This document shows, in pieces, positions 719-14,713 of a stretch of 64,000 bases of DNA. The DNA lies in the IMG/VR virus record IMGVR_UViG_3300030685_000017, positions 60,608 through 124,607 of that record. One strand, 5' to 3'. Each line of letters starts with the position of its first letter. Position 1 is the stretch's first letter. The notes beneath the pieces were generated by a model that made no database searches, had not been told where the DNA came from, and saw only the letters and a program-made list of their open reading frames with translations. The position numbers and the translations under genes were made by a program. Source of the DNA: a virus.

Positions 719-735
719 TTATTGGAGGTATATAA

Positions 736-1071
736 ATGAGACAATTTAAAGTTGGACAAAAAATTAAAATTAAAAAATTAGAAGAATTAAAAAAGTATGG
801 TGAAATAGACTGTGATGGTAATTTACGTTTTTATGATAGTGAATGTTATTTTATACGGAAAGATGAATATAAAGCAATAAAAAATAAATATATGACCATT
901 ACAGATATTCATTATGGTATAAAACAGAAGGGACTTCAATATTTAGGTTTTAACGCAGAAAAAGAATATGATGGATTTTTAACAAATGAAATGGTAACAA
1001 CATCAACAAGTGAAAGTCCTTTCTTTATGACTTTCAAAGATATTATACTGAGAATAGATAATGAAAAGTGA
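736..1071 (+). CDS. small hypothetical protein, FKVG-type N-terminus (family A-like), C-terminal FxTFK tag
   Basis: ORF with SD GGAGG; MRQFKVGQKIKIK...; ends FMTFKDIILRIDNEK. Confidence 0.8.
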   Translation: MRQFKVGQKIKIKKLEELKKYGEIDCDGNLRFYDSECYFIRKDEYKAIKNKYMTITDIHYGIKQKGLQYLGFNAEKEYDGFLTNEMVTTSTSESPFFMTFKDIILRIDNEK

Positions 1072-1390
1072 TATGAATAAATTTATAGAGCGTAAAGATG
1101 ATATTGAAATACTTGTTACAACAAAAGATCAAGCAAGAATTGTTTGTAAATTTATGAAAAGATTAGGTTGGACATGGGAACACGGAACATCATATAATAA
1201 TACTTATTGGTCTGAATGTATTTCAAGGGTGTATTATGATAATCATGGGGGCGCACATACCGTTCCACATAGTTTGTCAAAAACCACTATTTCGTTTCAA
1301 GAATTTATAGAATTTTTAATATTTTCTAAACATAAGAATTTTTTAACTTTTAAAGAGAAAGAAGAATATACAAATTTTATAAATAGTTAA
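1061..1390 (+). CDS. small hypothetical protein (family B), C-terminal FxTFK tag
   Basis: ORF overlapping previous stop; ends FLTFKEKEEYTNFINS. Confidence 0.8.
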   Translation: MKSDMNKFIERKDDIEILVTTKDQARIVCKFMKRLGWTWEHGTSYNNTYWSECISRVYYDNHGGAHTVPHSLSKTTISFQEFIEFLIFSKHKNFLTFKEKEEYTNFINS

Positions 1391-1414
1391 TATAATTAGA
1401 CAGGAGAGACTACA

Positions 1415-2308
1415 ATGAAATATATAGAAAGATTAAATTATAACAATAAAATAACCATTAAATTAGTGATACCAAGTTCATGTAATGCTCATTGTCAATT
1501 TTGTTATATGAATGATTATAAAGATATAATGAAAAATAATCAACAAGAATTTTTAAATCATTTTATTGATTCTTTGAATTATCTATTAAAAAAGATCAAT
1601 AATAAAGATTCTGTGTCTTTAGATATTACTGGAAATGAACCTACATTTGATATAGAATTATTAATAAAAGTATTAAATATGTTGAAGCAATATAATATTC
1701 AAGATAAAGTTTCTAGGGTTACATTTACAACAAATGGATTTAATCTATTAAAAGTAATTCCATATTTTAAAAATGTGATTAATTATGTTAATATTTCAAT
1801 GCATCATTATAATCAGGAAGAAAGAAATAAAATATTCAAAACGAATACTCCTTCCAATTATGATTATAAATTAATGGTAGATAAATTAGCAGATATTGGA
1901 ATAAAAACATCTTCTACCTGTGTAACATATAAATCTATTGAAAATTTTAAAAAGTTTATGAATATTTATATATCTTTTTGTAAAGAAATTGGTTTTGTTT
2001 CTGTTAGATTTAGGGATAATGTTTTTTGGAAAGATAGTCAATTTGATATTTATATGAATTTAGCTTTGAATGATGATCAATTTGAAGTTATTCAGTGTGA
2101 GAATACTTCCGATAGTAAATGGTGCAGACTTAAAATGAAAGATAAATTTAGAGTCTTTTTTTTACATGGAGTAAAAGATACTTCTTCTGTAAGTAAAGGA
2201 ATAGAATATGTAATTGCAGATGATGGAAAATGTTATACTGATTTTTATAAAAAAGAATCGATAGAAAATTATAAATTGTTAATTGGTAAAATATACGATA
2301 TTAAGTGA
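1415..2308 (+). CDS. radical SAM domain protein
   Basis: CxxxCxxC (CNAHCQFC), TGNEPT (GGEP-like) and TTNG motifs. Confidence 0.85.
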   Translation: MKYIERLNYNNKITIKLVIPSSCNAHCQFCYMNDYKDIMKNNQQEFLNHFIDSLNYLLKKINNKDSVSLDITGNEPTFDIELLIKVLNMLKQYNIQDKVSRVTFTTNGFNLLKVIPYFKNVINYVNISMHHYNQEERNKIFKTNTPSNYDYKLMVDKLADIGIKTSSTCVTYKSIENFKKFMNIYISFCKEIGFVSVRFRDNVFWKDSQFDIYMNLALNDDQFEVIQCENTSDSKWCRLKMKDKFRVFFLHGVKDTSSVSKGIEYVIADDGKCYTDFYKKESIENYKLLIGKIYDIK

Positions 2309-2323
2309 ATGGAGATATAAAAT

Positions 2324-2581
2324 ATGTATAAAAAATTACAATTGATTAAAAATATATATGTAATAGATGCACAAGAAGAAGAAACAGATTTAATGATTTA
2401 CGGAAATATTTCTTTTAAAAGACAAAATCGTAATCATTTTACATTTGTAGTTGGACAAACATATGATTATAAATCAGTTGAGAATGGTATCATTATTTTT
2501 TCAGATAATCAAAGAAATGATAATGAATTTAAAATTTTGATTCCACAAAAACGAATATTACAGTATGTTTGTGTAAATTAA
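2324..2581 (+). CDS. hypothetical protein
   Basis: ORF with SD GGAG. Confidence 0.65.
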   Translation: MYKKLQLIKNIYVIDAQEEETDLMIYGNISFKRQNRNHFTFVVGQTYDYKSVENGIIIFSDNQRNDNEFKILIPQKRILQYVCVN

Positions 2582-2599
2582 AAAAAAGGATGAATTATT

Positions 2600-2839
2600 A
2601 TGACAAAAAGACAAAATGAAAATTTGGATAATTGTTCAAAAGAACAATTAATTAATATAATTAAACAAATGTATTCTAATGAATTTTCGATTTCTGAAAT
2701 TTTAATAGATGCTTCTAAACAACATATAGATAATGATGTGGCTTTAGAAAAAATAAGACTACATTTATACAATAATAGTTTTGATTTTTCTATTTCTATA
2801 CCAGAACAAATCAAATATTTTTTAAAGATAAGGAAATAA
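2600..2839 (+). CDS. hypothetical protein
   Basis: ORF with SD AAGGA. Confidence 0.65.
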   Translation: MTKRQNENLDNCSKEQLINIIKQMYSNEFSISEILIDASKQHIDNDVALEKIRLHLYNNSFDFSISIPEQIKYFLKIRK

Positions 2840-2843
2840 TATT

Positions 2844-3161
2844 ATGATAAATCCATCTAATACTTATTTTTTTAAAGAAGGAGATATGGTAACTATAAAA
2901 TCATGGTCAGAGATGGAAAAAGAATATGGAACTTTTTTTGGGAATATTTGTACACCTTGTCGTTTTAGGCGGGATATGGAATCTTTATGTGGGTATAGTT
3001 TTATAATAAAGGGTATCACAAATTCGCATAGTAATAGATTTGGAAAATATCAAACATTTTTGTTTAAACGTCGTTATTTTATTGATAATTGGATGCTTAA
3101 ACCGTATAAAAGAACAGAATTTATGACATTTAAAGAAAAGTTAAAGGTGGAATTATTATGA
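2844..3161 (+). CDS. family A small protein (FK.GD.V.IKSW.EM.KEYG), C-terminal tag
   Basis: Paralog of 3158, 8811, 13406, 14041, 14366; ends FMTFKEKLKVELL. Confidence 0.8.
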   Translation: MINPSNTYFFKEGDMVTIKSWSEMEKEYGTFFGNICTPCRFRRDMESLCGYSFIIKGITNSHSNRFGKYQTFLFKRRYFIDNWMLKPYKRTEFMTFKEKLKVELL

Positions 3162-3475
3162 CATATCATTTTAAAATAGGACAGGAAGTTCAGTTTAAAA
3201 GTTGGGAAGAAATGAAAAAAGAATACGGATTAGATGAAGATGAAGATGGAGATATAAAGACACCGATGTGTTTTTGTACAAGAATGAAACATTTTTGCGG
3301 AACGAGCGACATAGTAGAAGAAATTAAGGAATATGAAGATGATTATGGAGGATTTTATCAAAAAATTGTACTTAGTTACTTTAAAAGTAATAGTTTTGAT
3401 AATTACATGTTTAAACCAAAAATAACTATTCAAAATTTATCTTTTCAAACATTAAAAAATAGAATGAAGAACTGA
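3158..3475 (+). CDS. family A small protein, C-terminal tag
   Basis: MTYHFKIGQEVQFKSWEEMKKEYG...; ends FQTLKNRMKN. Confidence 0.8.
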   Translation: MTYHFKIGQEVQFKSWEEMKKEYGLDEDEDGDIKTPMCFCTRMKHFCGTSDIVEEIKEYEDDYGGFYQKIVLSYFKSNSFDNYMFKPKITIQNLSFQTLKNRMKN

Positions 3476-3509
3476 AATTAATGTTGGTTAAATAGAAAGG
3501 AATAAAATT

Positions 3510-4034
3510 ATGAGTGATTGGACATATATAAGTGGTGTATTAACAGTTTCTCCCATGGGAATAACGCAAGCTGAAAAAAGATATGTTCTTGATACTGTAT
3601 TAGCTCATTTACCACTTGTCACAGGTAGTGAAAGAGATATGAATATGTATGTAATTCTAAAAAGGGGAGAGAATTCATCGTGTACTGTTGATGAGTTTGG
3701 AGAAAGTACAAACAATTTAACAGATAGTTATGAAGGTCATAATCGTAAAAATGGATGGTTAAGAACACAAGATGAATATCTTTTAGTCGTAAACGGAAGT
3801 TTCAGAGATAGGGTATTCAACGAAACTTTACGTGAATTTAATAAATGGATTTGTAGATTAGCTAAAAGAATTTCTGTTGAAGAAGTTCTTGTAGAAGTTA
3901 AGGGTTATAATGAAAATATTATAATAAAAAATGATCATCAAATTTATACAGAAATGTTTGAATATCCGAGTTGGTGTGATAAAAAATCAAAAAATTGGTG
4001 CGAATATTTACTGTGGGAAAAAGTGGAGGAGTAA
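3510..4034 (+). CDS. hypothetical phage protein
   Basis: 174-aa ORF with SD GAAAGG. Confidence 0.75.
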   Translation: MSDWTYISGVLTVSPMGITQAEKRYVLDTVLAHLPLVTGSERDMNMYVILKRGENSSCTVDEFGESTNNLTDSYEGHNRKNGWLRTQDEYLLVVNGSFRDRVFNETLREFNKWICRLAKRISVEEVLVEVKGYNENIIIKNDHQIYTEMFEYPSWCDKKSKNWCEYLLWEKVEE

Positions 4035-4035
4035 T

Positions 4036-4257
4036 ATGGATAATTTATTTATTAAAAAAGAAGATGGATCGTATATTATGACACCTTTAAATAAGCAGTT
4101 AAATAGAAAAGCAGGAGAAACGATAGAATTATTATTTGATGTATTATTAGACAGCGGAATTACTAATGTAGAAGCTAAATATGTTATTGATATGGTTACA
4201 GAAGAAGTAATGCTTAATAAAATACTTAATTTACACCCCATATTAAGATCAATCTAG
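4036..4257 (+). CDS. hypothetical protein (start MDNLF, downstream of the ORF-track start)
   Basis: GGAGGAG SD precedes ATG at 4036. Confidence 0.6.
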   Translation: MDNLFIKKEDGSYIMTPLNKQLNRKAGETIELLFDVLLDSGITNVEAKYVIDMVTEEVMLNKILNLHPILRSI

Positions 4258-4342
4258 GTATTATATTACTTATATATGCTTTTCTATGGGTATGTAACGA
4301 ATAAATTTAATATGAAACTACACTTTCAAAAAAGGAGAAAAT

Positions 4343-4678
4343 ATGCTTAAAATTATTTACGAAGAAGGAGGTACAGCTTTTTCTGATTTCGGTTTACTAC
4401 AACAGGCAAAAAGTATTATAACACATTATCGTGAAAATTCAAATGAAGTATGTACAGTAAAAGTATCAACAGAAGATATACTTGATGCATTAAGATTATG
4501 TGTATTAAAAGGAGATATAAGTTATTCTGAAATTTGTTTTATAATAAATGGAGAGGTAATAGAAATAGATGCAAAGGCAAATTATACAAGATTACCTTCT
4601 ATGGCATTTGATAATATAAGCGATATACTTCGTGAAATAAGAGAATTAAGAAAGGGTAAGAATGGCTTCTCAAAATAA
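4343..4678 (+). CDS. hypothetical protein
   Basis: ORF with SD AAGGAG. Confidence 0.7.
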   Translation: MLKIIYEEGGTAFSDFGLLQQAKSIITHYRENSNEVCTVKVSTEDILDALRLCVLKGDISYSEICFIINGEVIEIDAKANYTRLPSMAFDNISDILREIRELRKGKNGFSK

Positions 4679-4797
4679 AAAGAATAAAGCAAAGAATAGT
4701 TATATCACTAATGGGTATGATAAAAAAGATGGGAAATGGAAACGATATGCTTATTTTACAAAGAGAAATAGAAGTAATATAAAAATGGAGACAAATT

Positions 4798-5043
4798 ATG
4801 ACGTTTAAAGAAGTAAGTAGGGTTGAATGGGAAACATCACGTAAAGTAAATGGTAAGTATGAAACGGATGGGAGAACAGTTGGATCAAATTAGGATTCTT
4901 TTGGCATTATAGTAGAAAATATTTTATATCACGAACCAGAAAAAGAATGTCCTTATAATTTTTGTGATCTAATTTTATCTAACGAAGTTATTATTAGGGA
5001 ATTTGATATAAAACAAGTAACATTCAACACTAAGAAAGGGTAA
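4798..5043 (+). pseudogene. hypothetical gene interrupted by one in-frame TAG (4891-4893)
   Basis: SD GGAG, ATG 4798; frame stays open after TAG to TAA 5041-5043, next to the following gene's SD. Confidence 0.5.
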
Positions 5044-5045
5044 TT

Positions 5046-5456
5046 ATGAAAAAAATAATATCTATTATTTTATTAATAAATATAATAGTAAGTTTGACAG
5101 GATGTGGAGGAAAAGTAGAAACTAGAAATATCAAAAGTTGTGTGTTAGATAAGCAGACGACCAATAGTTCTAGTGGTACTTTTATCTTGGGCATGGGTGT
5201 TTTTAGTTCGGATACAGATATTACTACAAAATATTATATGTATATTAAAAGTGATGAAGGTTACAGACTGCAAGAAATAGATAGTGAATATTTACAAATA
5301 GTGGAGACAGATAAACGAACTCCTAGCATTAAAGGATATTTTTCTAGTGACGATGGAGTATCAGGTGGAATAATTTATGGTGGACAGTATACGGTGTATG
5401 TTCCTACCGGGACGATCACACAAGAGTATAAAACTAAAATTAATACTGAAAAGTAA
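5046..5456 (+). CDS. putative lipoprotein
   Basis: MKK + hydrophobic stretch + lipobox LTGC. Confidence 0.75.
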   Translation: MKKIISIILLINIIVSLTGCGGKVETRNIKSCVLDKQTTNSSSGTFILGMGVFSSDTDITTKYYMYIKSDEGYRLQEIDSEYLQIVETDKRTPSIKGYFSSDDGVSGGIIYGGQYTVYVPTGTITQEYKTKINTEK

Positions 5457-5511
5457 AAAATACGAATGAAACATAGATTTCATCCGATCTTAAAGAATAG
5501 AGAATGGAGAA

Positions 5512-5943
5512 TTGATTATGGATACCGTGAGAATGTGGCTATGTACAGGCATTAAAAATAAAGCAGATGAAAAAATGTTTACACTGAATGAAATCTACAT
5601 TTCAGACGATCAAGGTTTTTGTATTACAGATAATAAAGGACAGTCTCAACTGGGGGAATATATGTCTGTTGGTCAAATTACAGATTATTATCAAATAGAT
5701 TTTATACAGATTTCTCCATACCTCAGTTGTCCTATTTGTGGACATCAAATGTATATTGTAAATAAGCAAGGTCATATGAAAAAAAGGATATATTGTGATA
5801 TGTGTAAAAAAGCAAAGAATAAATATATATGTTATACTTGGGATGATATTAATCAAGGATATAAATGGTATGACGCTAGTATTTATACATATAGAACTAT
5901 ATTTCTTTACTTAATTGATGGATCAATATTTGAAGGTAAATAA
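5512..5943 (+). CDS. hypothetical protein with zinc-ribbon motifs
   Basis: CPICG...CDMC. Confidence 0.6.
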   Translation: MIMDTVRMWLCTGIKNKADEKMFTLNEIYISDDQGFCITDNKGQSQLGEYMSVGQITDYYQIDFIQISPYLSCPICGHQMYIVNKQGHMKKRIYCDMCKKAKNKYICYTWDDINQGYKWYDASIYTYRTIFLYLIDGSIFEGK

Positions 5944-5945
5944 TT

Positions 5946-6260
5946 GTGAATATAAATAATTTTTGTCGTTCAAAAGATAAAATGGCTGTAAAATGTGATA
6001 GTTTAGCAGAAGTAAAAGAGTTATTTATTATATTTCAGAAATATCATTTAGAATGGGCTAATGGTACTGTATATAATCCAAATTATTCTTTTATATATAA
6101 AGATGATTATGAGAATATATTTTTTACAAATAAAGGTACTACAGTACATTTATTCTATGCTCAAATGAATAATATTAATTTATATACTTTTAAGCAATTA
6201 AAAAATATTTCTCAGGATTTTTTGATTATTGCGGAAAGGAATTTAATATATGAAAACTAA
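5946..6260 (+). CDS. family B small protein, degenerate C-terminal tag
   Basis: MAVKCDS..EVKEL...W.NGT.Y similar to 1061 and 9110; ends DFLIIAERNLIYEN. Confidence 0.75.
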   Translation: MNINNFCRSKDKMAVKCDSLAEVKELFIIFQKYHLEWANGTVYNPNYSFIYKDDYENIFFTNKGTTVHLFYAQMNNINLYTFKQLKNISQDFLIIAERNLIYEN

Positions 6261-6501
6261 TATTTTTCATGTTGGTGATATTGTCACAGGAAGCAAGGAT
6301 AGTCTATATGGATTAACAAATCAATTTATGTTAGCGGGTGAGATTATACGTATTTGGGATGATGGATATATAACAATTCGATATTTAAAAGGAAGAGATC
6401 AAAAATGCATAAACCATGTGTATACTGTATGTTCACATGAATTTGTTCTGGTTAAATCAAAATCAATTGAATTTTTAACTTTTTCTGATAGAATTAAATA
6501 A
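6250..6501 (+). CDS. family D small protein, C-terminal tag
   Basis: FHVGDIV...TNQFM..G.I similar to 9469 and 9796; ends FLTFSDRIK. Confidence 0.75.
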   Translation: MKTNIFHVGDIVTGSKDSLYGLTNQFMLAGEIIRIWDDGYITIRYLKGRDQKCINHVYTVCSHEFVLVKSKSIEFLTFSDRIK

Positions 6502-6517
6502 TAAATATAATTATTCT

Positions 6518-6601
6518 GCGGACATGGCGTAATTGGCAGACGCAATGGACTTAAAATCCATTGTCCTTTTGGGCGTGAGGGTTCAAGTCCCTTTGTCCGC
6601 A
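6518..6601 (+). tRNA. tRNA-Leu (anticodon TAA)
   Basis: GCGGACA/TGTCCGC acceptor, ATGGA-CTTAAAA-TCCAT anticodon arm, long variable arm, GGTTCAAGTCC T-arm; CCA not encoded. Confidence 0.95.
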
Positions 6602-6624
6602 TAAAATATTTAAAGGAGGAATAA

Positions 6625-6948
6625 ATGAGAATGGAATTTTTTATTATGTTATCACAAGAAAAACAAATATATACTATAATTGCAACAGAAAGACAATTAA
6701 AAATTTTTATGATTTATTTTAAACGATACGTAAAAAACGATGAAAGCTTTTATAAAAGTTATTTTGATTCAGCTTGTGATTTATTAAGACGGGGTAAACG
6801 AGTGGGATTATGTTATTTTTGTGTTGCTAATGCTTCCAGTTTTATAGGAACTACTTTTACACGTTATTTTATAAATGAATTATATGCTTCTAATAGTCAT
6901 AATATTTTCTTAACCTTTAAAGAAAGGCGGTTATACGATGACAAATGA
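6625..6948 (+). CDS. family C small protein, C-terminal tag
   Basis: Tandem paralog of 6938..7252 (YTII.TE.QLK.FM.YFK.Y); ends FLTFKERRLYDDK. Confidence 0.8.
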   Translation: MRMEFFIMLSQEKQIYTIIATERQLKIFMIYFKRYVKNDESFYKSYFDSACDLLRRGKRVGLCYFCVANASSFIGTTFTRYFINELYASNSHNIFLTFKERRLYDDK

Positions 6949-7252
6949 TTTTTTTGTATTATTAGGACAGTCAAAACCTGTCTATACAATTATTAAAACA
7001 GAAGATCAATTAAAATTATTTATGTTTTATTTTAAAAAATATACACATCAGGATGAATGTTTTTATAGGGACTATTTTAAAGTCGCAAAATTTTTAATAC
7101 ACGAATATGGAAAAGTGGGTGCATGTAGCTATTGTGCTATATTAGTTGAAGGGTATGGAAGTAGTTATAAATATTATGATATAACAGAAGTGTTATCTTC
7201 TATTAATATGCATGCCTCATTTTTAACTTTTAAACAAAGAGTACAAAAATAA
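6938..7252 (+). CDS. family C small protein, C-terminal tag
   Basis: Ends FLTFKQRVQK. Confidence 0.8.
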   Translation: MTNDFFVLLGQSKPVYTIIKTEDQLKLFMFYFKKYTHQDECFYRDYFKVAKFLIHEYGKVGACSYCAILVEGYGSSYKYYDITEVLSSINMHASFLTFKQRVQK

Positions 7253-7289
7253 CTATAAAATTATAAATTATATAGATAGGAGAAATATT

Positions 7290-8420: not shown

Positions 8421-8449
8421 ATATATGATAATGAAACGGAGATTTTATA

Positions 8450-8808
8450 ATGAAAAGAATTGTTAAAGAATTTATTCAAGATAATACTATTACTATTCGT
8501 ACTCAGACAAGAGAAGATTTATTAGAATTAAAAGATTTTCTATATCAATTAAAGAATTATGATGAAACAATTCTAATATTTTCATATTTTTTAATGATGA
8601 TAATAAATATATAACAACTTATAAAACAAATACATTATTTTTTTATTTTGTACATTCTGCAACACGTTTTAGACGTGTTCTTATGTCTAAAGGAGAAAGT
8701 AATTATACCGCAAATGTTAGACGTACTTATACATGGAAACAATTTAAGAAAAAATTAATTATAAATAAAGATTTTAATACATTTAAAGAAATGCAAAGTG
8801 AGGTATAA
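8450..8808 (+). pseudogene. family B-like small gene with frameshifts in T-runs, C-terminal tag
   Basis: MKRIVKEFIQDNTITIRTQT (cf. 9110 MKQILKDFL...IAIRCKT); last frame ends DFNTFKEMQSEV. Confidence 0.6.
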
Positions 8809-8810
8809 TT

Positions 8811-9104
8811 ATGACATATCGTTTTAAAGTGGGAGATGAAGTTCAGTTTAAAAGTTGGGAAGAAATGAAAAAAGAATACGGAGTAGATTGTTTCGCTAAT
8901 ATTGCTACTCCTAGTAGTTTTGTAACGGATATGAAACCTTATTGCGGTAAAGTATGTAAAATAATAAAAGTATGTGATTATGATTCTTTTCAAAGATTAC
9001 TGATTATAGGTGTAGATACTAGTTATAATCTGGATAATTATATGTTTAAATTAGTTCATATAAATTCATCTTTTTTAACTTTTAAAGAAAGGGAGCTTAA
9101 ATAA
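8811..9104 (+). CDS. family A small protein, C-terminal tag
   Basis: Ends FLTFKERELK. Confidence 0.8.
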   Translation: MTYRFKVGDEVQFKSWEEMKKEYGVDCFANIATPSSFVTDMKPYCGKVCKIIKVCDYDSFQRLLIIGVDTSYNLDNYMFKLVHINSSFLTFKERELK

Positions 9105-9109
9105 AAAAT

Positions 9110-9451
9110 ATGAAACAGATTTTAAAAGATTTTTTACATGACTCACGTAATAATAATATAGCTATTCGTTGTAAAACAAAAGTAGAAGTAAGAAGCTTAT
9201 GTATTTTTTTAGATGATATGCATTTTCCAAGTCATGTTAGGAATACTTATTTATATTTATATGAGCATAATTTTAATTTTAATATGTGTCCATTAGATAT
9301 AGGAAATGATGGAGGTTGGGATACCGTAAAGGAGAATGGTTTATCAAGTTATAATAGAGATAATTATGATATTCATTTATATAAAAGTATTTTTTATGCT
9401 GAAGATAAAGAGTTTCAAACATTTAGAGATAGAATAGAATCGCTTAAATAA
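9110..9451 (+). CDS. family B small protein, C-terminal tag
   Basis: Ends FQTFRDRIESLK. Confidence 0.8.
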   Translation: MKQILKDFLHDSRNNNIAIRCKTKVEVRSLCIFLDDMHFPSHVRNTYLYLYEHNFNFNMCPLDIGNDGGWDTVKENGLSSYNRDNYDIHLYKSIFYAEDKEFQTFRDRIESLK

Positions 9452-9468
9452 AGAAAGGGTATAATATT

Positions 9469-9765
9469 ATGCAGATAGGAGATAAAGTTAGATTAAAAGA
9501 AGAATATATTTTAAATGAATTTTATACTATAACAAATGAAGAAATGATTATCGGTATAGTAAGAGATATAAAAGAAACATTTAGATCTAGAAGCAGTAGT
9601 GTATTTGTTGAAATTCGTGTTGAGGTACTTAAACATAAATATAAATATGAGATAGGAAAAAGTTATTGGGTAAATATTAAGCATTTTGAAAAGATAGGAC
9701 AAAATAATAATAAAGATTTTCAAACTTTTTCTATGAAAATAGCATTAAATAAAGATGGAGAATAA
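9469..9765 (+). CDS. family D small protein, C-terminal tag
   Basis: MQIGDKVRLK...; ends FQTFSMKIALNKDGE. Confidence 0.8.
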   Translation: MQIGDKVRLKEEYILNEFYTITNEEMIIGIVRDIKETFRSRSSSVFVEIRVEVLKHKYKYEIGKSYWVNIKHFEKIGQNNNKDFQTFSMKIALNKDGE

Positions 9766-9795
9766 ATTATTAAATAAGATAGGGAGATAATAAAT

Positions 9796-10065
9796 ATGAA
9801 AGTGGGAGATAAAATTAGACTTAAAAAATGTTATAGACATTCTCAAATATATCGTACAATAAATGAAAATATGATAGTAGGAATGGTTATAAGTTTAAGA
9901 CGTGTACCAGAAGGTGGTAATGATATTTCTATTAGGGTATTAAAGCATGTAGATTCAATAATTGAAGGAGAAGAATACAATGTAAAATCTAAGTATTTTG
10001 AAAAAATAAATCATAACAAAGATTTTGAAACCTTTAATGAGAGGAAAAATTATGAAAATAGTTGA
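9796..10065 (+). CDS. family D small protein, C-terminal tag
   Basis: MKVGDKIRLK...; ends FETFNERKNYENS. Confidence 0.8.
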   Translation: MKVGDKIRLKKCYRHSQIYRTINENMIVGMVISLRRVPEGGNDISIRVLKHVDSIIEGEEYNVKSKYFEKINHNKDFETFNERKNYENS

Positions 10066-10315
10066 GTTACAATCAATTTTTACTACAAAAGTAGTGGATT
10101 TTTATGGAGTAAATGAAGTAGTTATCAAAGAAAATGGAGATATGGTGCTTTTAGATTGTAAACATCCTATCTTTGAAATAGTAAATTCACAACCTAAATT
10201 ATTAATTAGACATCCAACTGACTGGGAATGTTGGGCAATTAAAGAGTTTTTAACACAAAATCATATTGCTGGTTTTGATCAGAAAATGATTAAAATTAGA
10301 CAAATGTATGGATAA
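10052..10315 (+). CDS. hypothetical protein (start MKIVEL)
   Basis: SD GAGAGG before ATG 10052. Confidence 0.6.
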   Translation: MKIVELQSIFTTKVVDFYGVNEVVIKENGDMVLLDCKHPIFEIVNSQPKLLIRHPTDWECWAIKEFLTQNHIAGFDQKMIKIRQMYG

Positions 10316-10337
10316 GAAAGGATGATGATAAAAATTA

Positions 10338-10625
10338 ATGAATAAGCAAGAAATAGCAGATTTACAAGCGACTTTACCAAAGAAACCAAACCTAAATCCT
10401 TGTTTGAAATGTGAAAGGAGAGATTTAAAATGCCATACTATATGTAAAGAATATTTATTAATGAGACAATATTATGATGCGTATAATGCTATTGTATTTA
10501 AAATCAAACAAGAACAGACCAGACAAAATATGGATTTTATGAATGCACTTAATCGTACTTCTCAAGCCAAAGGTAACTCTCGTGTAGAAAGTTTGTATGT
10601 GAAAAGGAAAAGAACAAATGGATGA
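10338..10625 (+). CDS. hypothetical Cys/His metal-binding protein
   Basis: PCLKC...CHTICKEY motif. Confidence 0.7.
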   Translation: MNKQEIADLQATLPKKPNLNPCLKCERRDLKCHTICKEYLLMRQYYDAYNAIVFKIKQEQTRQNMDFMNALNRTSQAKGNSRVESLYVKRKRTNG

Positions 10626-10761
10626 AGTAAGTTTACAAGAATTATATGAAAATATTGGTAATGTTTTAGATTTAGCTACAACAGAAGAAATAGATAATCA
10701 TTATGAGATATGGCAGGAATTAACAACTATTTATGTAAAAATGAAAGATGAAGGTTTTTAA
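10618..10761 (+). CDS. small acidic protein (47 aa)
   Basis: MDEVSLQELYENIGNVLDLATTEEIDNHYEIWQELTTIYVKMKDEGF, overlapping the upstream stop. Confidence 0.5.
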   Translation: MDEVSLQELYENIGNVLDLATTEEIDNHYEIWQELTTIYVKMKDEGF

Positions 10762-10770
10762 AAAAAGTAG

Positions 10771-10799
10771 TTGACAAATTAACAAAAATATGATAAAAT
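10771..10799 (+). promoter_or_regulatory. sigma-A type promoter
   Basis: TTGACA-17-TAAAAT with extended TG. Confidence 0.8.
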
Positions 10800-10820
10800 T
10801 AATTAAATAAGAGGGAAAAT

Positions 10821-11111
10821 ATGAGTAAACAAGAAAAGGCGGCGGTAGAAGATTTAGAATTAAGATTTGATAATGTAGATAAAATGTTGCAAGGAATTAT
10901 TAAAGAAACAAAGAATTTGAAACTTATCTTACTTAATTTAGAAATCGAGAATAGCCACATAAAAACTCCAACAGGAATTGAACCAATTGCAAAGAACTTA
11001 GAAAAACGTATTACACAAATGGAAGTTCATGTTCAGGGGTTTGTAGAAAACAATGAAGCCGAAATAGAACAATCATTAAATGTTTTACGACAAGGACTAA
11101 TTGATGATTAG
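10821..11111 (+). CDS. coiled-coil protein resembling the MCP (chemoreceptor) signalling hairpin
   Basis: LKLILLNLEIENSH...TGIEPIAKNL aligns loosely with TNLLALNAAIEAAR...RGFAVVA.EV. Confidence 0.5.
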   Translation: MSKQEKAAVEDLELRFDNVDKMLQGIIKETKNLKLILLNLEIENSHIKTPTGIEPIAKNLEKRITQMEVHVQGFVENNEAEIEQSLNVLRQGLIDD

Positions 11112-11130
11112 TTAGGCTGTTAGGAGTGCC

Positions 11131-11391
11131 ATGTCTTTAAAACGCTGTTTATTATTTGCCAGAGCATCTAAGTTAGAAAATTTAGGTGATGCCATCTTCC
11201 ATGTTTGTCTTGAAGCAAATACATTATTTGTGAAGAAAAAGATTTATACGGAAATCGAAACCTTATTAAGACAAAGAAATTTATTATTTAAAGAAACTAC
11301 ATTTAATAATTATACAAAAATAAATGTGGTTTTAGAATGGATTGAAGCGTTACCGGAAGAAAAACGCGAATTATACACAATAGACATCTAA
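11131..11391 (+). CDS. hypothetical protein
   Basis: ORF with SD AGGAG. Confidence 0.65.
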   Translation: MSLKRCLLFARASKLENLGDAIFHVCLEANTLFVKKKIYTEIETLLRQRNLLFKETTFNNYTKINVVLEWIEALPEEKRELYTIDI

Positions 11392-11419
11392 AAACAATTA
11401 TTTCATATCCTCCTTTTCT

Positions 11420-11470
11420 AAAGTATATTGCTATGATTTATGTAACTTATAAGTCATAGCAATATACTTT
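11420..11470 (+). terminator. 22-bp hairpin preceded by anti-SD-like TCCTCCTTT (terminator or sRNA)
   Basis: AAAGTATATTGCTATGATTTAT / ATAAGTCATAGCAATATACTTT. Confidence 0.55.
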
Positions 11471-11503
11471 ATATAATGAATGGATAAATGAAAGGAAAAT
11501 ATT

Positions 11504-11650
11504 ATGAGTATTAAACAAATTTTTGATGATTTTAATAAAGAAATTACACAAAATTTATCTGACTTAAAAGAACATATTGTATTATTTAAAGAAGCTGTAG
11601 AGAACTATAATACTATTACTAGAAAAGTAATAGATGGATGGAAAAATTAA
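11504..11650 (+). CDS. small hypothetical protein (48 aa)
   Basis: SD AAAGGA; MSIKQIFDDFNKEITQ... Confidence 0.5.
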   Translation: MSIKQIFDDFNKEITQNLSDLKEHIVLFKEAVENYNTITRKVIDGWKN

Positions 11651-11712
11651 GCATAAATAATTAATTTATATCAATTAATAACACCTATTATTTTATAAAA
11701 GAGGGAAAAATT

Positions 11713-11907
11713 ATGAGTAAAATAATTACAGTTAAATTTTTGTTGATTTTACGCAGTATTTTGTTGGGAATAAATTGTATACTTATTGGAGTATCAATAC
11801 ATTTACAAACCATAGAAAATACAATAATAGGTGTTATGATTGTATGTTTGCTATCAAGAATTATTTTATTAAACCTTACACCGTGGTTGGTAAAGAAAGA
11901 AGGATAA
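11713..11907 (+). CDS. small membrane protein
   Basis: Two hydrophobic stretches, SD GAGGG. Confidence 0.55.
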   Translation: MSKIITVKFLLILRSILLGINCILIGVSIHLQTIENTIIGVMIVCLLSRIILLNLTPWLVKKEG

Positions 11908-12509
11908 TGAAAACACAATTTAATTATATAGGAGATACATGGTTAAGTGTTAAGAACCATTGCAGAACTACAGTCGGAAAAGTATTTACAGAAAAAGAAC
12001 CTACAGAGATTTTTAAATGGAGACTACTTATATCAGAGCATACTCCTATTAGACTTTTAGAATTTGATTGGAGTTGGAGAAGTATTCCATATTGGGTTAG
12101 TACCGAATTAAGTCGTCATAAATTTGAGAAATTTATTACAACTCAAAGAGATGATAGAACTGATTCAAAAATTCCTCGTGCTGAATTACCTCAAGGTGCA
12201 TTGGTAAATTATGATGGATTTGCTAATATGCAAAACTTAATAGATGCTTTTCGAAAGAGATTATGCTTTCAAGCTACTCATGAAGCGAGAGAATTAGTTG
12301 AGGATTTCAAAGAAACTTTACATAATAATCATCCTATTGAAGCTAATATTTTAGTTTCAAACTGTATATATCGTGGAGGATGTCCTGAAATAAATCATTG
12401 TGGATTTTGGGAAGCATTTATTGCGAAGCACAAAGATGATAATTTATTAGATTTAGATACTCGATATAAATTGTATAACGAAGATTTTTATAAAGGAGGA
12501 AAAATTTGA
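11907..12509 (+). CDS. thyX: FAD-dependent thymidylate synthase (ThyX)-like protein; start MKTQFN
   Basis: EHTPIR, VSTELSRH, RLCFQA..E.R motifs; SD AAGGA before ATG 11907. Confidence 0.7.
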   Translation: MKTQFNYIGDTWLSVKNHCRTTVGKVFTEKEPTEIFKWRLLISEHTPIRLLEFDWSWRSIPYWVSTELSRHKFEKFITTQRDDRTDSKIPRAELPQGALVNYDGFANMQNLIDAFRKRLCFQATHEARELVEDFKETLHNNHPIEANILVSNCIYRGGCPEINHCGFWEAFIAKHKDDNLLDLDTRYKLYNEDFYKGGKI

Positions 12510-12781
12510 AAACACAAATGTATAAAATTGTTCAAATTATAGATAAAAATTTTAATCCGAAACCTCTACCTGCAGAACATGGAGATCTTATTGGAAAATT
12601 TGTATGGGATAATTATACAAATAAGATAGAAATTGGTTATCCATGTTTCTTTCTATGGAATGATAACAGTGGAAAAATGATGAGAACGAGTAGAGTAGAA
12701 GAAGTTTTAGAATTAGAATATACACATCAAATTTTGGTTACTACGCAAAATAGTGTATATCTTTTTACAGAGGTAGATTGA
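12506..12781 (+). CDS. hypothetical protein
   Basis: SD AGGAGG, TTG start; RTS.V...TTQNSVY motif. Confidence 0.7.
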   Translation: MKTQMYKIVQIIDKNFNPKPLPAEHGDLIGKFVWDNYTNKIEIGYPCFFLWNDNSGKMMRTSRVEEVLELEYTHQILVTTQNSVYLFTEVD

Positions 12782-12956
12782 TGAAAAATATCAATAATAA
12801 TCAAATGGAAACTTTTAGTGAAACTCTTGCTAGGATACAAAATGAAAATATTCTGGATCACAAAATAAAAAAGTTATGTTATCATTATGATAAGAGATGT
12901 AATGGTGCAATTTGTAGACATTGTAAATTTAGAAATGACTAAGAAAGGAATATAAA

Positions 12957-13403
12957 ATGAATACGATTATATTGATTTTATTTATTATGATGTTTTTACA
13001 TATTTATGTAGACTTTAATTTACAAATAGGTTCGTCACTTAATAACTTGAAGCAAAAAGATTGGTGGAGACATAATTGTAATAAGTCGCAATATAAATAT
13101 GATTATATTATGGCTATGTTATTACACAGTTTTTCTTGGACTTTCGGAATTATGTTTGCACCTGTATTATATTTAAAGATTAAAACAGGATATTCCAATA
13201 GTACTATATTTATTAATTGTTTCATTATTCTGTTATTTGTTATAAATGCTGTAGCACACTATATTATAGATAATTTAAAAGCAAATGATCATGTAATAAA
13301 TTTGTGGGTAGATCAGATAGGTCATATAATACAAATTTTAATTACGTGGTTTATTTTATTGCATATAATTTATCCATTTATTACAAAGAATATTTGGGTA
13401 TAA
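12957..13403 (+). CDS. membrane protein, DUF3307-like
   Basis: H..DF.LQ...K, H...D..K, DQ..H motifs with TM segments. Confidence 0.7.
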   Translation: MNTIILILFIMMFLHIYVDFNLQIGSSLNNLKQKDWWRHNCNKSQYKYDYIMAMLLHSFSWTFGIMFAPVLYLKIKTGYSNSTIFINCFIILLFVINAVAHYIIDNLKANDHVINLWVDQIGHIIQILITWFILLHIIYPFITKNIWV

Positions 13404-13405
13404 TT

Positions 13406-13714
13406 ATGAATTATTCATTTAAAATTGGTGATAGAGTAAAGATAAAATCATGGGGAAAAATGGCACATGAATATGGAATAAATTGACTTGGTAATATTAA
13501 AACTCCTTGTCATTTTATTTCAGAAATGAAAGAATATTGTGGTAAACGCGCAGAAGTAATTAATATAATTAATAGAAAAGCATATCAAAGAGTACAGTTA
13601 TCTATAGCAATTGGTTATACAATAGATAATTGGATGTTAGAACCAGATAAGAATAGTATAAATTTTATGACGTATAAGGAAAGGAATAGAGATTGGATTA
13701 ATATAAATATATAA
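13406..13714 (+). pseudogene. family A small gene with a single in-frame TGA (13484-13486), C-terminal tag
   Basis: MNYSFKIGDRVKIKSW..M.HEYGIN*LGNIKTPC...MKEYCGK...FMTYKERN in one frame. Confidence 0.75.
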
Positions 13715-13729
13715 AAGGGAGATAAAGAT

Positions 13730-14044
13730 ATGAAACAATTTAATTTAGATGATATTCCTAAATATAAGAAAAAAGAAATAAAATCTGTAGAAAAACCTAA
13801 ACACAAACACATATATGAATATTGTCTTACAATAGATGAAAATAATAGATATTATCCTATGGTATATTGTACTATATGCGGTAAGCTAAAATATAATATA
13901 ACGCTTTGTGAAATTTCTGAAAAAACAGATGATGGATGTTTCAGATTATTATCTCAAGAAGAAATATATAATAAATATAAGCATTTAAAACAATTTAGAA
14001 TAAAGGATATGTTTCAAAAGCGGTTAGAAGGGGATAAGTTATGA
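13730..14044 (+). CDS. hypothetical zinc-binding protein
   Basis: KHKH.Y..C ... YCTICGK. Confidence 0.7.
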   Translation: MKQFNLDDIPKYKKKEIKSVEKPKHKHIYEYCLTIDENNRYYPMVYCTICGKLKYNITLCEISEKTDDGCFRLLSQEEIYNKYKHLKQFRIKDMFQKRLEGDKL

Positions 14045-14346
14045 CATATCGTTTTAAAGTGGGAGATAAAGTTCAGTTTAAAAGTTGGGAAGAAATGAAA
14101 AAAGAATACGGAGTAAATTGTTCGTGGAATGACATTCCCACTCCTTGTGCTTTTGTCGGAAGTATGGATCATCTTTGTGGAAAAAGAGTAAAAATAATAG
14201 ATATATATAAAGAAAATAAAATTGGAAAATTATATGATCAGCGTATTGAGATAGAACCATTTACTGATGAATATAATTATGATAATTATATGTTTAAACC
14301 GGTAAACGATAATCCTATTTTTAAAACATTTAAGGAATGTTTATGA
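14041..14346 (+). CDS. family A small protein, C-terminal tag
   Basis: Ends FKTFKECL. Confidence 0.8.
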   Translation: MTYRFKVGDKVQFKSWEEMKKEYGVNCSWNDIPTPCAFVGSMDHLCGKRVKIIDIYKENKIGKLYDQRIEIEPFTDEYNYDNYMFKPVNDNPIFKTFKECL

Positions 14347-14365
14347 AAGGAGATAGAAAATTATT

Positions 14366-14713
14366 ATGACTTATACTTTTAAAATAGGAGATAAAGTGAA
14401 GTTTAAAGGTTGGAAAACATTGAGTAGAGATTATGGAATACAATGTCGTGATATTGTAACTCCGTATACTTTTAACAGAAGTATGAATTGGTTATGTGGT
14501 TTACACGCCGAAGTTATAAAAGTAACAAAAGAAAGTGATATTTGTACTTGGTATGAACAATATAAAAAACGTAATATAACTGTACAGATACAAAATATAG
14601 AAGTAAAATTGTTAGATGATTATACACAAAAATTATATAGTATTGAAAATTTTTCATTTGATAATTTTATGTTTGAACCCATGGTCAAAGATCCGTGTTT
14701 TATGACACTATAA
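14366..14713 (+). CDS. family A small protein, tag truncated by a stop
   Basis: Ends CFMTL-TAA-ERK. Confidence 0.75.
   Translation: MTYTFKIGDKVKFKGWKTLSRDYGIQCRDIVTPYTFNRSMNWLCGLHAEVIKVTKESDICTWYEQYKKRNITVQIQNIEVKLLDDYTQKLYSIENFSFDNFMFEPMVKDPCFMTL

What the first reader, a model, noticed from the sequence alone, without database searches (positions are those of the whole stretch)
736..14713. About 16 small proteins from four distinct families share one C-terminal peptide tag, F-x-T-F-K-[ED]-[RK]
Seen: ORF ends read FMTFKDI (736), FLTFKEK (1061), FMTFKEK (2844), FQTLKNR (3158), FLIIAER (5946, degenerate), FLTFSDR (6250), FLTFKER (6625), FLTFKQR (6938), FNTFKEM (8450, broken gene), FLTFKER (8811), FQTFRDR (9110), FQTFSMK (9469), FETFNER (9796), FMTYKER (13406), FKTFKEC (14041), FMTL*ER (14366). 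The motif is always in frame and 1-9 residues before the stop (at 14366 the stop falls inside it). The Thr codon uses all four synonyms (ACT/ACA/ACC/ACG) and Lys both, which favours selection on the peptide over the DNA. The carriers are ~85-115 aa and fall into four families: A (FKVGD.V.FKSWEEMKKEYG), B (1061/5946/8450/9110), C (6625/6938) and D (6250/9469/9796); A and D share only a short (K/H)(V/I)GD-type start. Interspersed enzymes and membrane proteins lack the tag. Inference: a portable address label that recruits a library of variable cargo domains to one partner. It could be a capsid-packaging/ejection signal (analogous to the N-terminal capsid-targeting sequence of T4 internal proteins), a docking motif for a shared phage or host hub, or an oligomerisation/proteolysis tag. 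I know of no described system with this motif.
Basis: partly seen in the sequence, partly recalled or inferred. Interest (0 to 1): 0.92.

Follow-up and report, generated by a model that had tools for sequence, protein, structure and literature searches.

The report
Shared C-terminal tag on phage proteins
About 34 small accessory genes of an uncultured peat phage, from at least six unrelated protein families, all end in the same seven-residue peptide, which looks like a selected docking or sorting handle whose partner is still unknown.

Summary
The whole 124.6-kb genome holds 34 copies, all on the + strand between genome 41.6 and 75.3 kb, each in frame and 1-9 residues before a stop.

The core is F-x-T-hydrophobic-K, followed by [EDQ]-[RK].

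- Selection acts on the peptide. Synonymous codons vary, replacements are conservative, and within families A and B the tag is better conserved than the domain.
- The K-E-R codons double as the next gene's Shine-Dalgarno site in about 8 of 28 carriers, but the core is kept in all 20 others.
- Families A and B are widespread phage domains. None of 19 outside A homologues and none of 141 outside B homologues carries the tag.
- Elsewhere A, B and G are covalently fused in multidomain proteins.
- The tag resembles the N-terminal helix cap of the B domain.

Best reading: a lineage-specific docking handle that ties solo modules to one partner. That partner is unidentified. Function is inferred, not shown.

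The parts
736..1071 (+). Family A (SH3_15-like) carrier; tag FMTFKDI at 1024-1044, 8 residues before stop; directly followed by a family B gene
1061..1390 (+). Family B carrier; tag FLTFKEK at 1340-1360, 9 residues before stop
2844..3161 (+). Family A carrier; tag FMTFKEK at 3120-3140
3158..3475 (+). Family A carrier; tag FQTLKNR at 3443-3463
5946..6260 (+). Family B carrier with degenerate tag FLIIAER at 6219-6239 (start GTG 5946 or ATG 5982); its AGG doubles as SD of the next gene
6250..6501 (+). Family E (weakly D-like) carrier; tag FLTFSDR at 6472-6492; followed by tRNA-Leu(TAA) 6517-6602, not by a protein gene
6625..6948 (+). Family C carrier; tag FLTFKER at 6907-6927
6938..7252 (+). Family C carrier; tag FLTFKQR at 7220-7240
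8450..8808 (+). Broken family B-like gene (8450-8614 and 8683-8808); tag FNTFKEM at 8773-8793
8811..9104 (+). Family A carrier; tag FLTFKER at 9072-9092; directly followed by a family B gene
9110..9451 (+). Family B carrier; tag FQTFRDR at 9413-9433
9469..9765 (+). Family D carrier; tag FQTFSMK at 9718-9738
9796..10065 (+). Family D carrier; tag FETFNER at 10024-10044
13406..13714 (+). Family A carrier interrupted here by in-frame TGA 13484-13486 (GGA in runs X8 and X10); tag FMTYKER at 13664-13684
14041..14346 (+). Family A carrier; tag FKTFKEC at 14320-14340, 1 residue before stop
14366..14713 (+). Family A carrier with truncated tag FMTL then TAA at the Lys position (14699-14713)
3..551 (+). 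C-terminal end of an 849-aa protein (genome 58609-61158): three untagged B-domain repeats plus a phage peptidase domain; a possible tag receptor or hub (inference only)

Best explanation
The tag is a lineage-specific short linear peptide motif, F-x-T-hydrophobic-K-[EDQ]-[RK], followed by 1-9 variable residues. It is kept by selection on the protein. It sits at the C-terminus of about 34 small accessory genes of one uncultured peat phage.

The carriers are solo versions of at least six unrelated small domains. Family A is SH3_15-like. Family B is a widespread phage domain with a conserved HC.T motif. The others are C, D/E, G and I. In other phages A, B and G occur without the tag, and often fused to each other or repeated in multidomain proteins.

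I read the tag as a common docking handle. I picture a Thr-capped short amphipathic helix anchored by the two Phe residues, tethering each solo module non-covalently to one shared partner. This would replace the covalent linkage seen elsewhere.

The tag most likely arose from the junction and first helical turn of a downstream B domain when X-B fusion genes split. Its K-E-R codons were then partly co-opted as the next gene's ribosome-binding site. The partner I favour, weakly, is a phage B-domain protein, such as the untagged B arrays of the 849-aa peptidase protein and the 535-aa protein. A host hub is not excluded.

Shown: the motif, its frame, peptide-level constraint, unrelated carriers, tagless homologues and fusions elsewhere.
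Inferred: helix shape, origin, docking function and partner.
For: 1. Distribution. There are 34 in-frame copies, all on the + strand, all 1-9 residues from a stop, and none on the - strand. Enrichment is 28 per 1,560 tail residues against 4 per 7,717 body residues.

2. Peptide-level constraint (28 carriers).
- Position 2 is free: eight different residues occur there.
- The Thr wobble base uses all four bases.
- Position 4 is F19, L4, V2, I2, Y1.
- K to R, E to Q/D and R to K swaps occur.

3. SD independence. In the 20 carriers whose tag is not the next gene's SD, F0, T2 and the hydrophobic residue at position 3 are kept in 20 of 20.

4. Conservation within families. In family A the mean pairwise identity of the tag is 0.63 against 0.35 for the body, and only 2.4% of 7-column body windows reach the tag's value. 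In family B it is 0.45 against 0.27, and no window reaches it.

5. Unrelated carriers. With the tag trimmed, hhalign probabilities between A, B, C, G and I are 0.8% or less. With the tag left on, similarity runs only through the tag. The Atlas structural neighbours of A and B differ, and for A they align to residues 1-83, which stops short of the tag.

6. Tagless homologues.
- A: 15 outside loci plus 4 fusion proteins, 0 with the tag.
- B: 141 outside proteins among the best 150 of 1,586 HMM hits, 0 with the tag.

7. Fusions elsewhere. Of 143 proteins, 4 are A-B fusions and 1 joins B with G. There are 187 B domains in those 143 proteins. In this phage an A-type gene is directly followed by a B gene three times.

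8. Origin. MAFFT places the tag on the start of B in A-B fusions. B-B junctions elsewhere read x-I-T-[LIF]-[KD]-[ED]-F-[FW]. A matrix built only from 58 outside B N-termini scores the tags at a median 98.8th percentile of all 5-mers in the proteome, with 14 of 28 above the 99th.
Against: - No partner was found, and no binding, localisation or expression data exist.
- The tag is seen only in this phage. Searches of IMG/VR, metagenomes and species genomes found no second lineage, so co-variation with a receptor cannot be tested.
- B-family proteins carry the tag themselves. This complicates a model in which the B domain is the receptor.
- AGG makes up 8 of 16 Arg codons at position 6, against 8% genome-wide. 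E-R is present in 5 of 8 SD-overlapping tags but only 2 of 20 others. Part of the motif is therefore shaped at the RNA level.
- Several carriers are fragments or broken (genome 44638, 50238, 54967, 55665, 55762, 69380, 75306), so individual copies are dispensable.
- The likeness to the B N-terminus is post hoc and modest. In the reverse scan the best-scoring position fell in the N-terminal region in only 48 of 187 domains. The 28 tags are not independent, so the p-value is inflated.
- Families C and D have no outside homologues, so a grafted origin is untested for them.
- Fold differences rest on sequence profiles and Atlas look-alikes.
Confidence: 0.45

Rival explanations
1. Virion packaging or ejection signal. 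The tag is a C-terminal counterpart of the T4 capsid targeting sequence or of encapsulin cargo-loading peptides. It loads about 30 solo anti-host modules into the procapsid so that they enter the next cell together with the DNA.
For: The logic matches T4. [quoted passage not shown] Family 1 encapsulin cargo uses short C-terminal peptides (passage read in 10.1101/2021.03.18.436031). The carriers are solo forms of domains that are fused in multidomain proteins elsewhere. Phage polyvalent proteins are argued to be delivered with the DNA (passages read in PMC5512222). Rapid gene turnover and paralogue expansion fit an arms race.
Against: The carriers lie in the + strand block with the replication and nucleotide-metabolism genes. 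They are 16-26 kb from the - strand head genes: portal, large terminase and a likely capsid protein. No head protein ends in a similar peptide. The motif differs from the encapsulin TVGSL-type motif. No prohead protease was recognised. The A and B domains are not shown to belong to the described polyvalent proteins.
Confidence: 0.2
2. A fission scar plus Shine-Dalgarno by-product with no peptide function. The tail would be what remains of the first turn of a downstream B domain after X-B genes split. It would be kept similar by recent spread, by recombination between junctions, and by the need for a purine-rich ribosome-binding site.
For: The tag resembles the B-domain N-terminus. AGG is enriched at position 6: 8 of 16 Arg codons against 8% genome-wide. 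Eight of 28 tags overlap the next gene's SD. An A gene is followed by a B gene three times.
Against: F0, T2 and the hydrophobic residue at position 3 are kept in 20 of 20 carriers whose tag is not an SD. Twelve of 28 have the next called start 45 nt or more away, and one is followed by a tRNA gene. Within families A and B the tag is more conserved than the domains, which have diverged to 20-58% identity. DNA identity does not extend beyond the 21 nt. All in-region DNA matches are in one frame and inside ORFs, with none intergenic.
Confidence: 0.15
3. Turnover or processing tag. The tail would be recognised by a protease, peptidase or unfoldase, either of the phage or of the host. Phage candidates are the 849-aa B-repeat peptidase and the Bcs1/Cdc48-like AAA ATPase at genome 26849-27469. 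The effect would be to time the lifetime of early proteins or to trim their variable last 1-9 residues.
For: A peptidase domain lies in the middle of the tagged cluster and is fused to three B domains (phrog_4191, 1.6e-30; weak PepT-like hits). The phage encodes a classic-clade AAA ATPase (PF00004, 6.6e-18; best solved relatives are VAT/Cdc48/Bcs1). The variable trailing residues would suit trimming.
Against: The motif is not at the extreme C-terminus. Classical C-terminal degrons need that (recalled, not tested). The AAA gene may be N-terminally frameshifted. There is no evidence linking either enzyme to the tag.
Confidence: 0.1
4. All carriers are one diverged superfamily, and the motif is simply its conserved last helix.
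For: A, D, E and F all begin with a (K/H)(V/I)GD-type start. Weak hhalign links exist: A-F 89.5%, D-E 21%, B-H 10.8% with the tag trimmed.
Against: A and B occur as two successive domains in one polypeptide in other phages. The trimmed profiles of A, B, C, G and I do not align. Outside homologues of A and B end their domain before the tag position and lack the tag.
Confidence: 0.03
5. Recognition sequence for the radical SAM enzyme encoded at window 1415-2308, in the manner of RiPP tail modification.
For: A radical SAM gene sits just after two carriers. It has weak similarity to peptide maturases such as PapB (8e-10) and YhhB.
Against: Three IMG/VR contigs encode a 57-58% identical enzyme and have no tag in 20 kb around it. 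They also have no B domain anywhere in the records. No SPASM-type Cys-rich C-terminus is visible. All NCBIfam hits are far below their cut-offs.
Confidence: 0.03

Closest known systems
T4 capsid targeting sequence (CTS) of internal proteins IPI-III
   Same: Diverse, fast-evolving small phage proteins share nothing but one short terminal peptide (passage in PMC3012670). The locus is variable and rich in paralogues.
   Different: The CTS is N-terminal and is removed by the prohead protease (recalled, not read). It targets the scaffolding core. Here the peptide is C-terminal, the genes lie far from the head genes, and virion association is untested.
Encapsulin Family 1 cargo-loading / targeting peptides
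   Same: A short C-terminal peptide, set behind a linker, marks unrelated proteins for one HK97-fold shell (passage in 10.1101/2021.03.18.436031).
   Different: The consensus differs (TVGSL-type there). Cargo genes sit in an operon with the shell gene, and there are few cargos per system. Here there are about 34 carriers and none is next to a capsid gene.
Polyvalent multidomain proteins of phages and conjugative elements (Iyer et al. 2017, PMC5512222)
   Same: Many small conflict-type modules are joined in one polypeptide, often with a peptidase. The same domains also exist as solo versions (passages read). Here A-B, B-G and B-repeat fusions exist elsewhere, and one protein has three B domains plus a peptidase.
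   Different: In this phage the modules are solo genes carrying a common tail. I did not show that A or B belong to the families catalogued in that paper. Its supplements were not available to me.
Hub-binding short linear motifs: clamp-binding tails, the SspB tail that binds ClpX, p97 cofactor motifs
   Same: A short peptide after a linker, carried by unrelated proteins, docks them to one hub. This comparison is recalled, not tested.
   Different: There is no sequence likeness to those motifs, and no hub has been identified here.
Shine-Dalgarno / upstream translational enhancer embedded in the preceding gene's 3' end
   Same: The K-E-R codons (AAA GAA AGG) lie 4-17 nt before the next start in 8 of 28 carriers, and AGG is enriched.
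   Different: The F-x-T-F-K core is conserved where no start follows. The motif is always in one frame and never intergenic, and its variation follows the genetic code rather than the RNA sequence.

Membership tests
T4-type capsid targeting sequence | Shared by otherwise unrelated small proteins of a variable locus | tested here: met
   At least six unrelated families and 34 copies
T4-type capsid targeting sequence | N-terminal position with cleavage by the prohead protease (feature recalled) | tested here: not met
   The motif is C-terminal in all 34 copies. No prohead protease was recognised.
T4-type capsid targeting sequence | Carriers present inside virions | not testable with these tools
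   This is an uncultured phage from peat metagenomes, so no proteome exists.
Encapsulin Family 1 cargo-loading peptide | Short C-terminal peptide on unrelated cargo proteins | tested here: met
   definition from the passage read
Encapsulin Family 1 cargo-loading peptide | TVGSL/GSL-type consensus and operon linkage to an HK97-fold shell gene | tested here: not met
   The consensus here is F-x-T-F-K-E-R. The carriers lie 16-26 kb from the head genes, on the other strand.
Shine-Dalgarno or translational-enhancer by-product | Fixed short spacing to a downstream start codon | tested here: not met
   Met in 8 of 28 carriers only. Twelve of 28 have the next called start 45 nt or more away.
Shine-Dalgarno or translational-enhancer by-product | Occurrence independent of the upstream reading frame, including between genes | tested here: not met
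   All 27 strict hits in the region are in the upstream ORF's frame and inside it. None of the 8 + strand DNA matches in 1-15000 is out of frame or intergenic.
Single homologous protein family with a conserved terminal helix | Detectable homology across the whole carrier | tested here: not met
   hhalign with the tag trimmed gives 0.8% or less between A, B, C, G and I. A and B are successive domains of single proteins elsewhere.
RiPP-like substrate of the neighbouring radical SAM enzyme | Co-occurrence of the enzyme with the recognition sequence | tested here: not met
   Loci with 57-58% identical enzymes have no tag.
Polyvalent-protein modules (PMC5512222) | The same domains combined in multidomain polypeptides, often with a peptidase, and also found solo | tested here: inconclusive
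   A-B fusions in 4 of 143, B-G in 1 of 143, 187 B domains in 143 proteins, and one protein with three B domains plus a peptidase. Whether A and B belong to the catalogued polyvalent families was not checked.
Polyvalent-protein modules (PMC5512222) | Delivery into the host together with the DNA | not testable with these tools
   Needs virion proteomics.
Mobile regulatory cassette (promoter plus stem-loop flanking ORFs, T4-type; recalled) | DNA-level repeat extending beyond coding sequence, with a stem-loop | tested here: not met
   The flanks of the 21-nt tag are unrelated between families. Only 4 terminator-like hairpins lie in 16 kb, and one of them is next to a tag.

The most novel reading that the evidence does not exclude
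The phage has taken apart a polyvalent effector protein. About 30 solo anti-host modules each keep a common C-terminal handle, derived from the B-domain helix cap. Through that handle they are loaded together into the capsid, or onto one phage scaffold, and delivered or deployed as a set. This would be a C-terminal, non-cleaved counterpart of the T4 capsid targeting sequence, in a Clostridia-type phage.
Probability: 0.18. Interest if true: 0.9.

Novelty: new variant of a known kind. Interest (0 to 1): 0.68.

Why it matters
Short shared terminal peptides are how T4 and encapsulins sort unrelated proteins into one place. If this tag works in the same spirit, three things follow.

- It gives a ready-made list of about 34 functionally linked accessory proteins in a phage where almost nothing is annotated.
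- It offers a portable seven-residue handle for tethering or loading foreign proteins.
- It would be an example of covalent multidomain effectors being replaced by non-covalent assembly.

It also shows how a gene-fission junction can be turned into a motif that serves both the protein and the next gene's ribosome-binding site. The two large, uncharacterised phage domain families A and B (1,586 profile hits for B) would gain a first functional link, because they are fused elsewhere and tagged alike here.

Tried and rejected
Database and literature searches that gave nothing decisive:
- Pfam, PHROGs and NCBIfam on the carriers gave only sub-threshold hits: SH3_15 for A and DUF7390 for B.
- The phage collection had no DNA or protein match to the region or to a family A member.
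The recurrent FCTFKER hits are one near-identical start-less frame. One FETFKER occurs in a 63-aa frame. I treat both as chance.
- Searches of solved structures found nothing for families A or B, the 676-aa and 849-aa proteins, the likely capsid protein or the 568-aa head-region protein. A hit of the B profile to 2k0z at E 0.064 is a lead only.
- Word-index searches for families A, C and D returned only this phage's own proteins.
- Outside A-domain fusion partners match no other protein of this phage.
- Literature searches found no description of such a tag (listings only).

Analyses that were uninformative:
- The promoter scan was uninformative in this AT-rich DNA: 116 hits against 130 expected.
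- Population data gave only about 17 SNP places in 15 kb. None is in a tag, but only 0.4 would be expected, so this is no test.
- No RNA holder was listed among the 18 runs.
- Complex prediction with an untagged B protein (alignment A3) and a tagged A protein (alignment A4) returned no verdict: score 0.01, mark 0.32, controls not folded. This is neither support nor evidence against binding.

Ideas considered and dropped:
- A -1 or +1 slippery site at TTTAAAG: the frame does not fit.
- An arrest peptide: the distance to the stop varies.
- A mimic of the FtsZ C-terminal peptide: the Pro is absent and Lys stands where FtsZ has Leu (this comparison is recalled).
- An FHA-binding phospho-Thr site: no kinase or FHA domain was seen among the roughly 70 proteins scanned.

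Supplements of papers were not seen and may list domains equal to A or B.

Full report
**What the window is.** The window is the right half of a single-contig virus record of 124,607 bp; the window covers genome 60,608-124,607. GC content is 25-33%. Near-identical DNA is held by runs labelled peat metagenome: 18 runs are listed, and 11 hold half or more of the sampled words. Structural genes (portal, large terminase, tail proteins) lie on the - strand at both ends of the record. The + strand block from about 25.9 to 101.5 kb holds small ORFs followed by replication and nucleotide-metabolism genes. No record in the phage collection matches the region. The best protein matches of a RecD2-like gene are to phages of Clostridia and Bacilli at 27-35% identity. 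Gene coordinates below come from my own simple ORF caller (ATG starts, greedy by length), so starts are approximate.

A six-frame scan of the whole genome with a strict pattern gave 29 hits. Of these, 27 are on the + strand between genome 44,638 and 74,927, each in a long frame and 1-9 residues before its stop. None of the 29 is on the - strand. The other 2 are chance hits that are not tags: one lies directly after a stop, and one lies 40 residues before a stop. A looser pattern on the + strand of 41-76 kb gave 37 hits. I dropped three that lie in stop-to-stop frames of 13, 29 and 5 residues, which leaves 34 tags. Eighteen of them lie upstream of the window.

The four-residue core F.T[FLYVI] occurs 28 times in the 1,560 tail residues of the region's 78 + strand ORFs, against 4 times in their 7,717 body residues. 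Elsewhere in the genome it occurs once per 2,220 tail residues and 27 times per 25,646 body residues. At the DNA level, TTYNNNACNTTYAAR has 16 matches in the window where shuffles give 1.56, with a maximum of 5. Within 1-15000 all eight + strand matches are in-frame tags and none is intergenic or out of frame.

**Peptide or nucleic acid.** I looked at the codons of 28 carriers.
- Position 2 is free: eight different residues occur there.
- Thr uses ACT 15, ACA 6, ACC 4 and ACG 2, close to genome usage.
- Position 4 is F19, L4, V2, I2, Y1. The first and third bases change while hydrophobicity is kept.
- K goes to R, E goes to Q or D, and R goes to K.

That pattern follows the genetic code, not an RNA sequence.

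There is one real nucleic-acid signal. Arg at position 7 is AGG in 8 of 16 cases, although AGG is only 8% of Arg codons in the genome. In 8 of 28 carriers the K-E-R codons lie in the Shine-Dalgarno window of the next gene. By eye a ninth case is the tag at 10024, before the overlapping ORF 10037-10315. E-R is present in 5 of those 8 tags but in only 2 of the other 20. In those other 20 carriers the next gene has its own SD after the tag, or shows none in the scanned window, and F0, T2 and the hydrophobic residue are kept in 20 of 20. In 12 of the 28 carriers the next called start is 45 nt or more away, and the tag at 6472 is followed by a tRNA-Leu gene.

So F-x-T-hydrophobic-K is a protein-level core, and the last two positions are shaped partly by translation of the next gene. 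Within families the tag is better conserved than the domain. In family A its mean pairwise identity is 0.63 against 0.35, and only 2.4% of seven-column body windows reach the tag's value. In family B it is 0.45 against 0.27, and no window reaches it. F and T of the tag are two of only eight invariant columns in family A.

**Who carries it.** blastp clustering and profile comparison give these groups:
- A, with the related singleton F and an A-like frame at genome 54309: 12 copies.
- B, with the related H: 14 copies, counting fragments.
- C: 2 copies.
- D: 2 copies, plus a weakly related E.
- G and I: singletons.
- One 41-residue frame that I could not assign.

With the tag trimmed, hhalign gives 0.8% or less between A, B, C, G and I. 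With the tag left on, the only alignment runs through the tag. Pfam and PHROGs name nothing. Family A has a sub-threshold SH3_15 hit. The ESM Atlas holds models of one A and one B member, with pTM 0.66 and 0.71. Their structural neighbours are different sets, and for A they align to residues 1-83, which stops short of the tag. These are leads only.

Several copies are fragments or broken. One break, the TGA at 13484, reads GGA in two other runs, so that gene is intact elsewhere.

**Homologues elsewhere lack the tag.** The family A domain turns up in several places:
- one IMG/VR contig;
- nine metagenome contigs, one of which appears to be the same contig as the IMG/VR locus, leaving eight that I examined;
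- six contigs of Clostridia, Lachnospiraceae, Eubacteriales and Tenericutes assemblies.

In all 15 loci the domain ends at M-L-K-P-type residues and is followed by other sequence, or by the stop. The tag never follows.

A profile of family B found 1,586 proteins at E 0.001 or better, and 265 at 1e-10, among 1.84 billion representatives. Of the best 150, seven are this genome's own ORFs and two are near-identical variants of them that carry the tag. Of the remaining 141, none has the motif near its C-terminus. One has only the four-residue core, inside the domain's last strand motif. Families C and D have no outside homologue in the word-index search, so the point is untested for them. Three IMG/VR contigs that share a 57-58% identical radical SAM enzyme have no tag nearby and no B domain anywhere in the records. 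This also removes the idea that the enzyme needs the tag.

**The modules are fused elsewhere.** Among the 143 proteins of that list that are not identical to this genome's ORFs, 4 are A-B fusions with A at residues 2-78 and B immediately after. One protein joins B with the G domain. B is often repeated: 187 domains in 143 proteins, and 32 junctions under 40 residues.

In this phage an A-type gene is followed directly by a B gene three times, at window 736/1061, window 8811/9110 and genome 55748/56103. Two large proteins hold untagged B domains. One is a 535-aa protein with two B domains and a Met-rich tail. The other is an 849-aa protein with three B domains and a phage peptidase domain (phrog_4191, 1.6e-30). 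This resembles the polyvalent proteins of phages and conjugative elements, in which many modules and a peptidase share one polypeptide and solo versions also exist (passages of PMC5512222 read). I did not show that A or B belong to that catalogue.

**Where the tag may come from.** When A-B fusions are aligned with this phage's A proteins, MAFFT places the tag on the first residues of the B domain. In B-B tandems and many solo B proteins elsewhere, the domain begins x-I-T-[LIF]-[KD]-[ED]-F-[FW]. The Thr sits where a helix N-cap would be. The first four residues of that start are the same as tag positions 3-6.

I built a matrix from 58 outside B N-termini only. It scores the 28 tags at a median 98.8th percentile of all 5-mers in this proteome, with 14 above the 99th percentile. 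The 28 tags are not independent and the comparison is post hoc. In the reverse scan the N-terminal region was the best-scoring place in only 48 of 187 domains. I therefore hold this as a moderately supported lead.

The scenario would be this. X-B fusion genes split just after the first helical turn of B. The core Phe of the helix was replaced by Arg or Lys, which also makes AAAGAAAGG, a ribosome-binding site for the gene that follows.

**How it most likely works.** Shown: a lineage-specific, selected, C-terminal peptide on unrelated solo modules that are fused elsewhere. Inferred: it is a short Thr-capped amphipathic helix that docks each module to one shared partner, so that non-covalent assembly replaces covalent fusion. 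I give this 0.45.

The partner I favour, weakly, is a phage B-domain protein. The tag looks like a B helix start, and untagged B arrays sit in the same gene block. Against this, B proteins carry the tag themselves.

The rivals, with my odds:
- A packaging signal, by analogy with the T4 CTS and with encapsulin peptides, at 0.2. It is weakened by the carriers' distance from the head genes.
- A functionless fission scar plus SD, at 0.15. It is weakened by conservation where no start follows and by conservation above the domain's own level.
- A turnover or trimming tag read by the peptidase or by the Bcs1/Cdc48-like AAA ATPase, at 0.1.
- One superfamily, at 0.03.
- A radical SAM substrate, at 0.03.

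**Novelty.** Four literature searches found no description of this motif or of a C-terminal tag shared by phage accessory families (listings only). The kind of thing is known: a shared terminal peptide that sorts or docks unrelated proteins. This form is new in its position, its sequence, its roughly 34 carriers, its possible origin from a domain junction and its double use as an SD. It is confined to one uncultured lineage, and its function is unproven.

Noticed in passing
window 13484-13486: The in-frame TGA that breaks the family A gene 13406-13714 reads GGA (T>G at 13484) at full depth in the contigs of two other peat runs, X8 and X10. The gene is therefore intact in other populations.
   Followed up: partly
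window 7290-8332: The RtcB-like RNA ligase is split into a 296-aa and a 51-aa frame that overlap at 8177-8180, and it ends early. The stretch 7290-8808 holds several broken genes.
   Followed up: no
genome 58609-61158 (L005:2609-5155; its end is window 3-551): An 849-aa protein with three untagged B-domain repeats and a phage peptidase domain (phrog_4191, 1.6e-30; weak PepT/M20-like hits). The linker after repeat 2 reads FPYITERV at the position where solo B proteins carry the tag.
   Followed up: partly
genome 39691-41298 (L120:691-2295): A 535-aa protein with two untagged B domains and a C-terminal region of Met-rich repeats (NPMMMAMMM-type). It lies just upstream of the first tagged gene.
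   Followed up: no
genome 26849-27469 (L002:6242-6859): A classic-clade AAA ATPase (PF00004, 6.6e-18). Its best solved relatives are VAT, Cdc48 and Bcs1. Its open frame extends upstream and overlaps another frame, so the N-terminal part may be frameshifted.
   Followed up: partly
window 1415-2308: A radical SAM enzyme with no SPASM-like C-terminus. Homologues 57-58% identical occur in three IMG/VR contigs of about 36% GC that otherwise look unrelated (no B domain, no tag).
   Followed up: partly
window 16800-18939: A XerC/XerA-like tyrosine recombinase (16800-17798) lies next to a NifS-type cysteine desulfurase (17875-18939, 8e-91), in a phage that also encodes radical SAM and anaerobic ribonucleotide reductase-like genes.
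   Followed up: no
proteins P0029, P0048, P0079 and loci L111, L122, L124, L126: Many outside A-domain proteins share a second recurring C-terminal module (…FTEDEKVILRN…YKWIARD…). This phage appears to lack it.
   Followed up: no
alignment A3 (family B, 51 sequences): The B domain has nearly invariant Cys and Thr in an (I/V)-A-V-H-C-x-T strand motif, and a weak profile hit (E 0.064) to the solved uncharacterised protein 2k0z. A catalytic Cys is conceivable.
   Followed up: no
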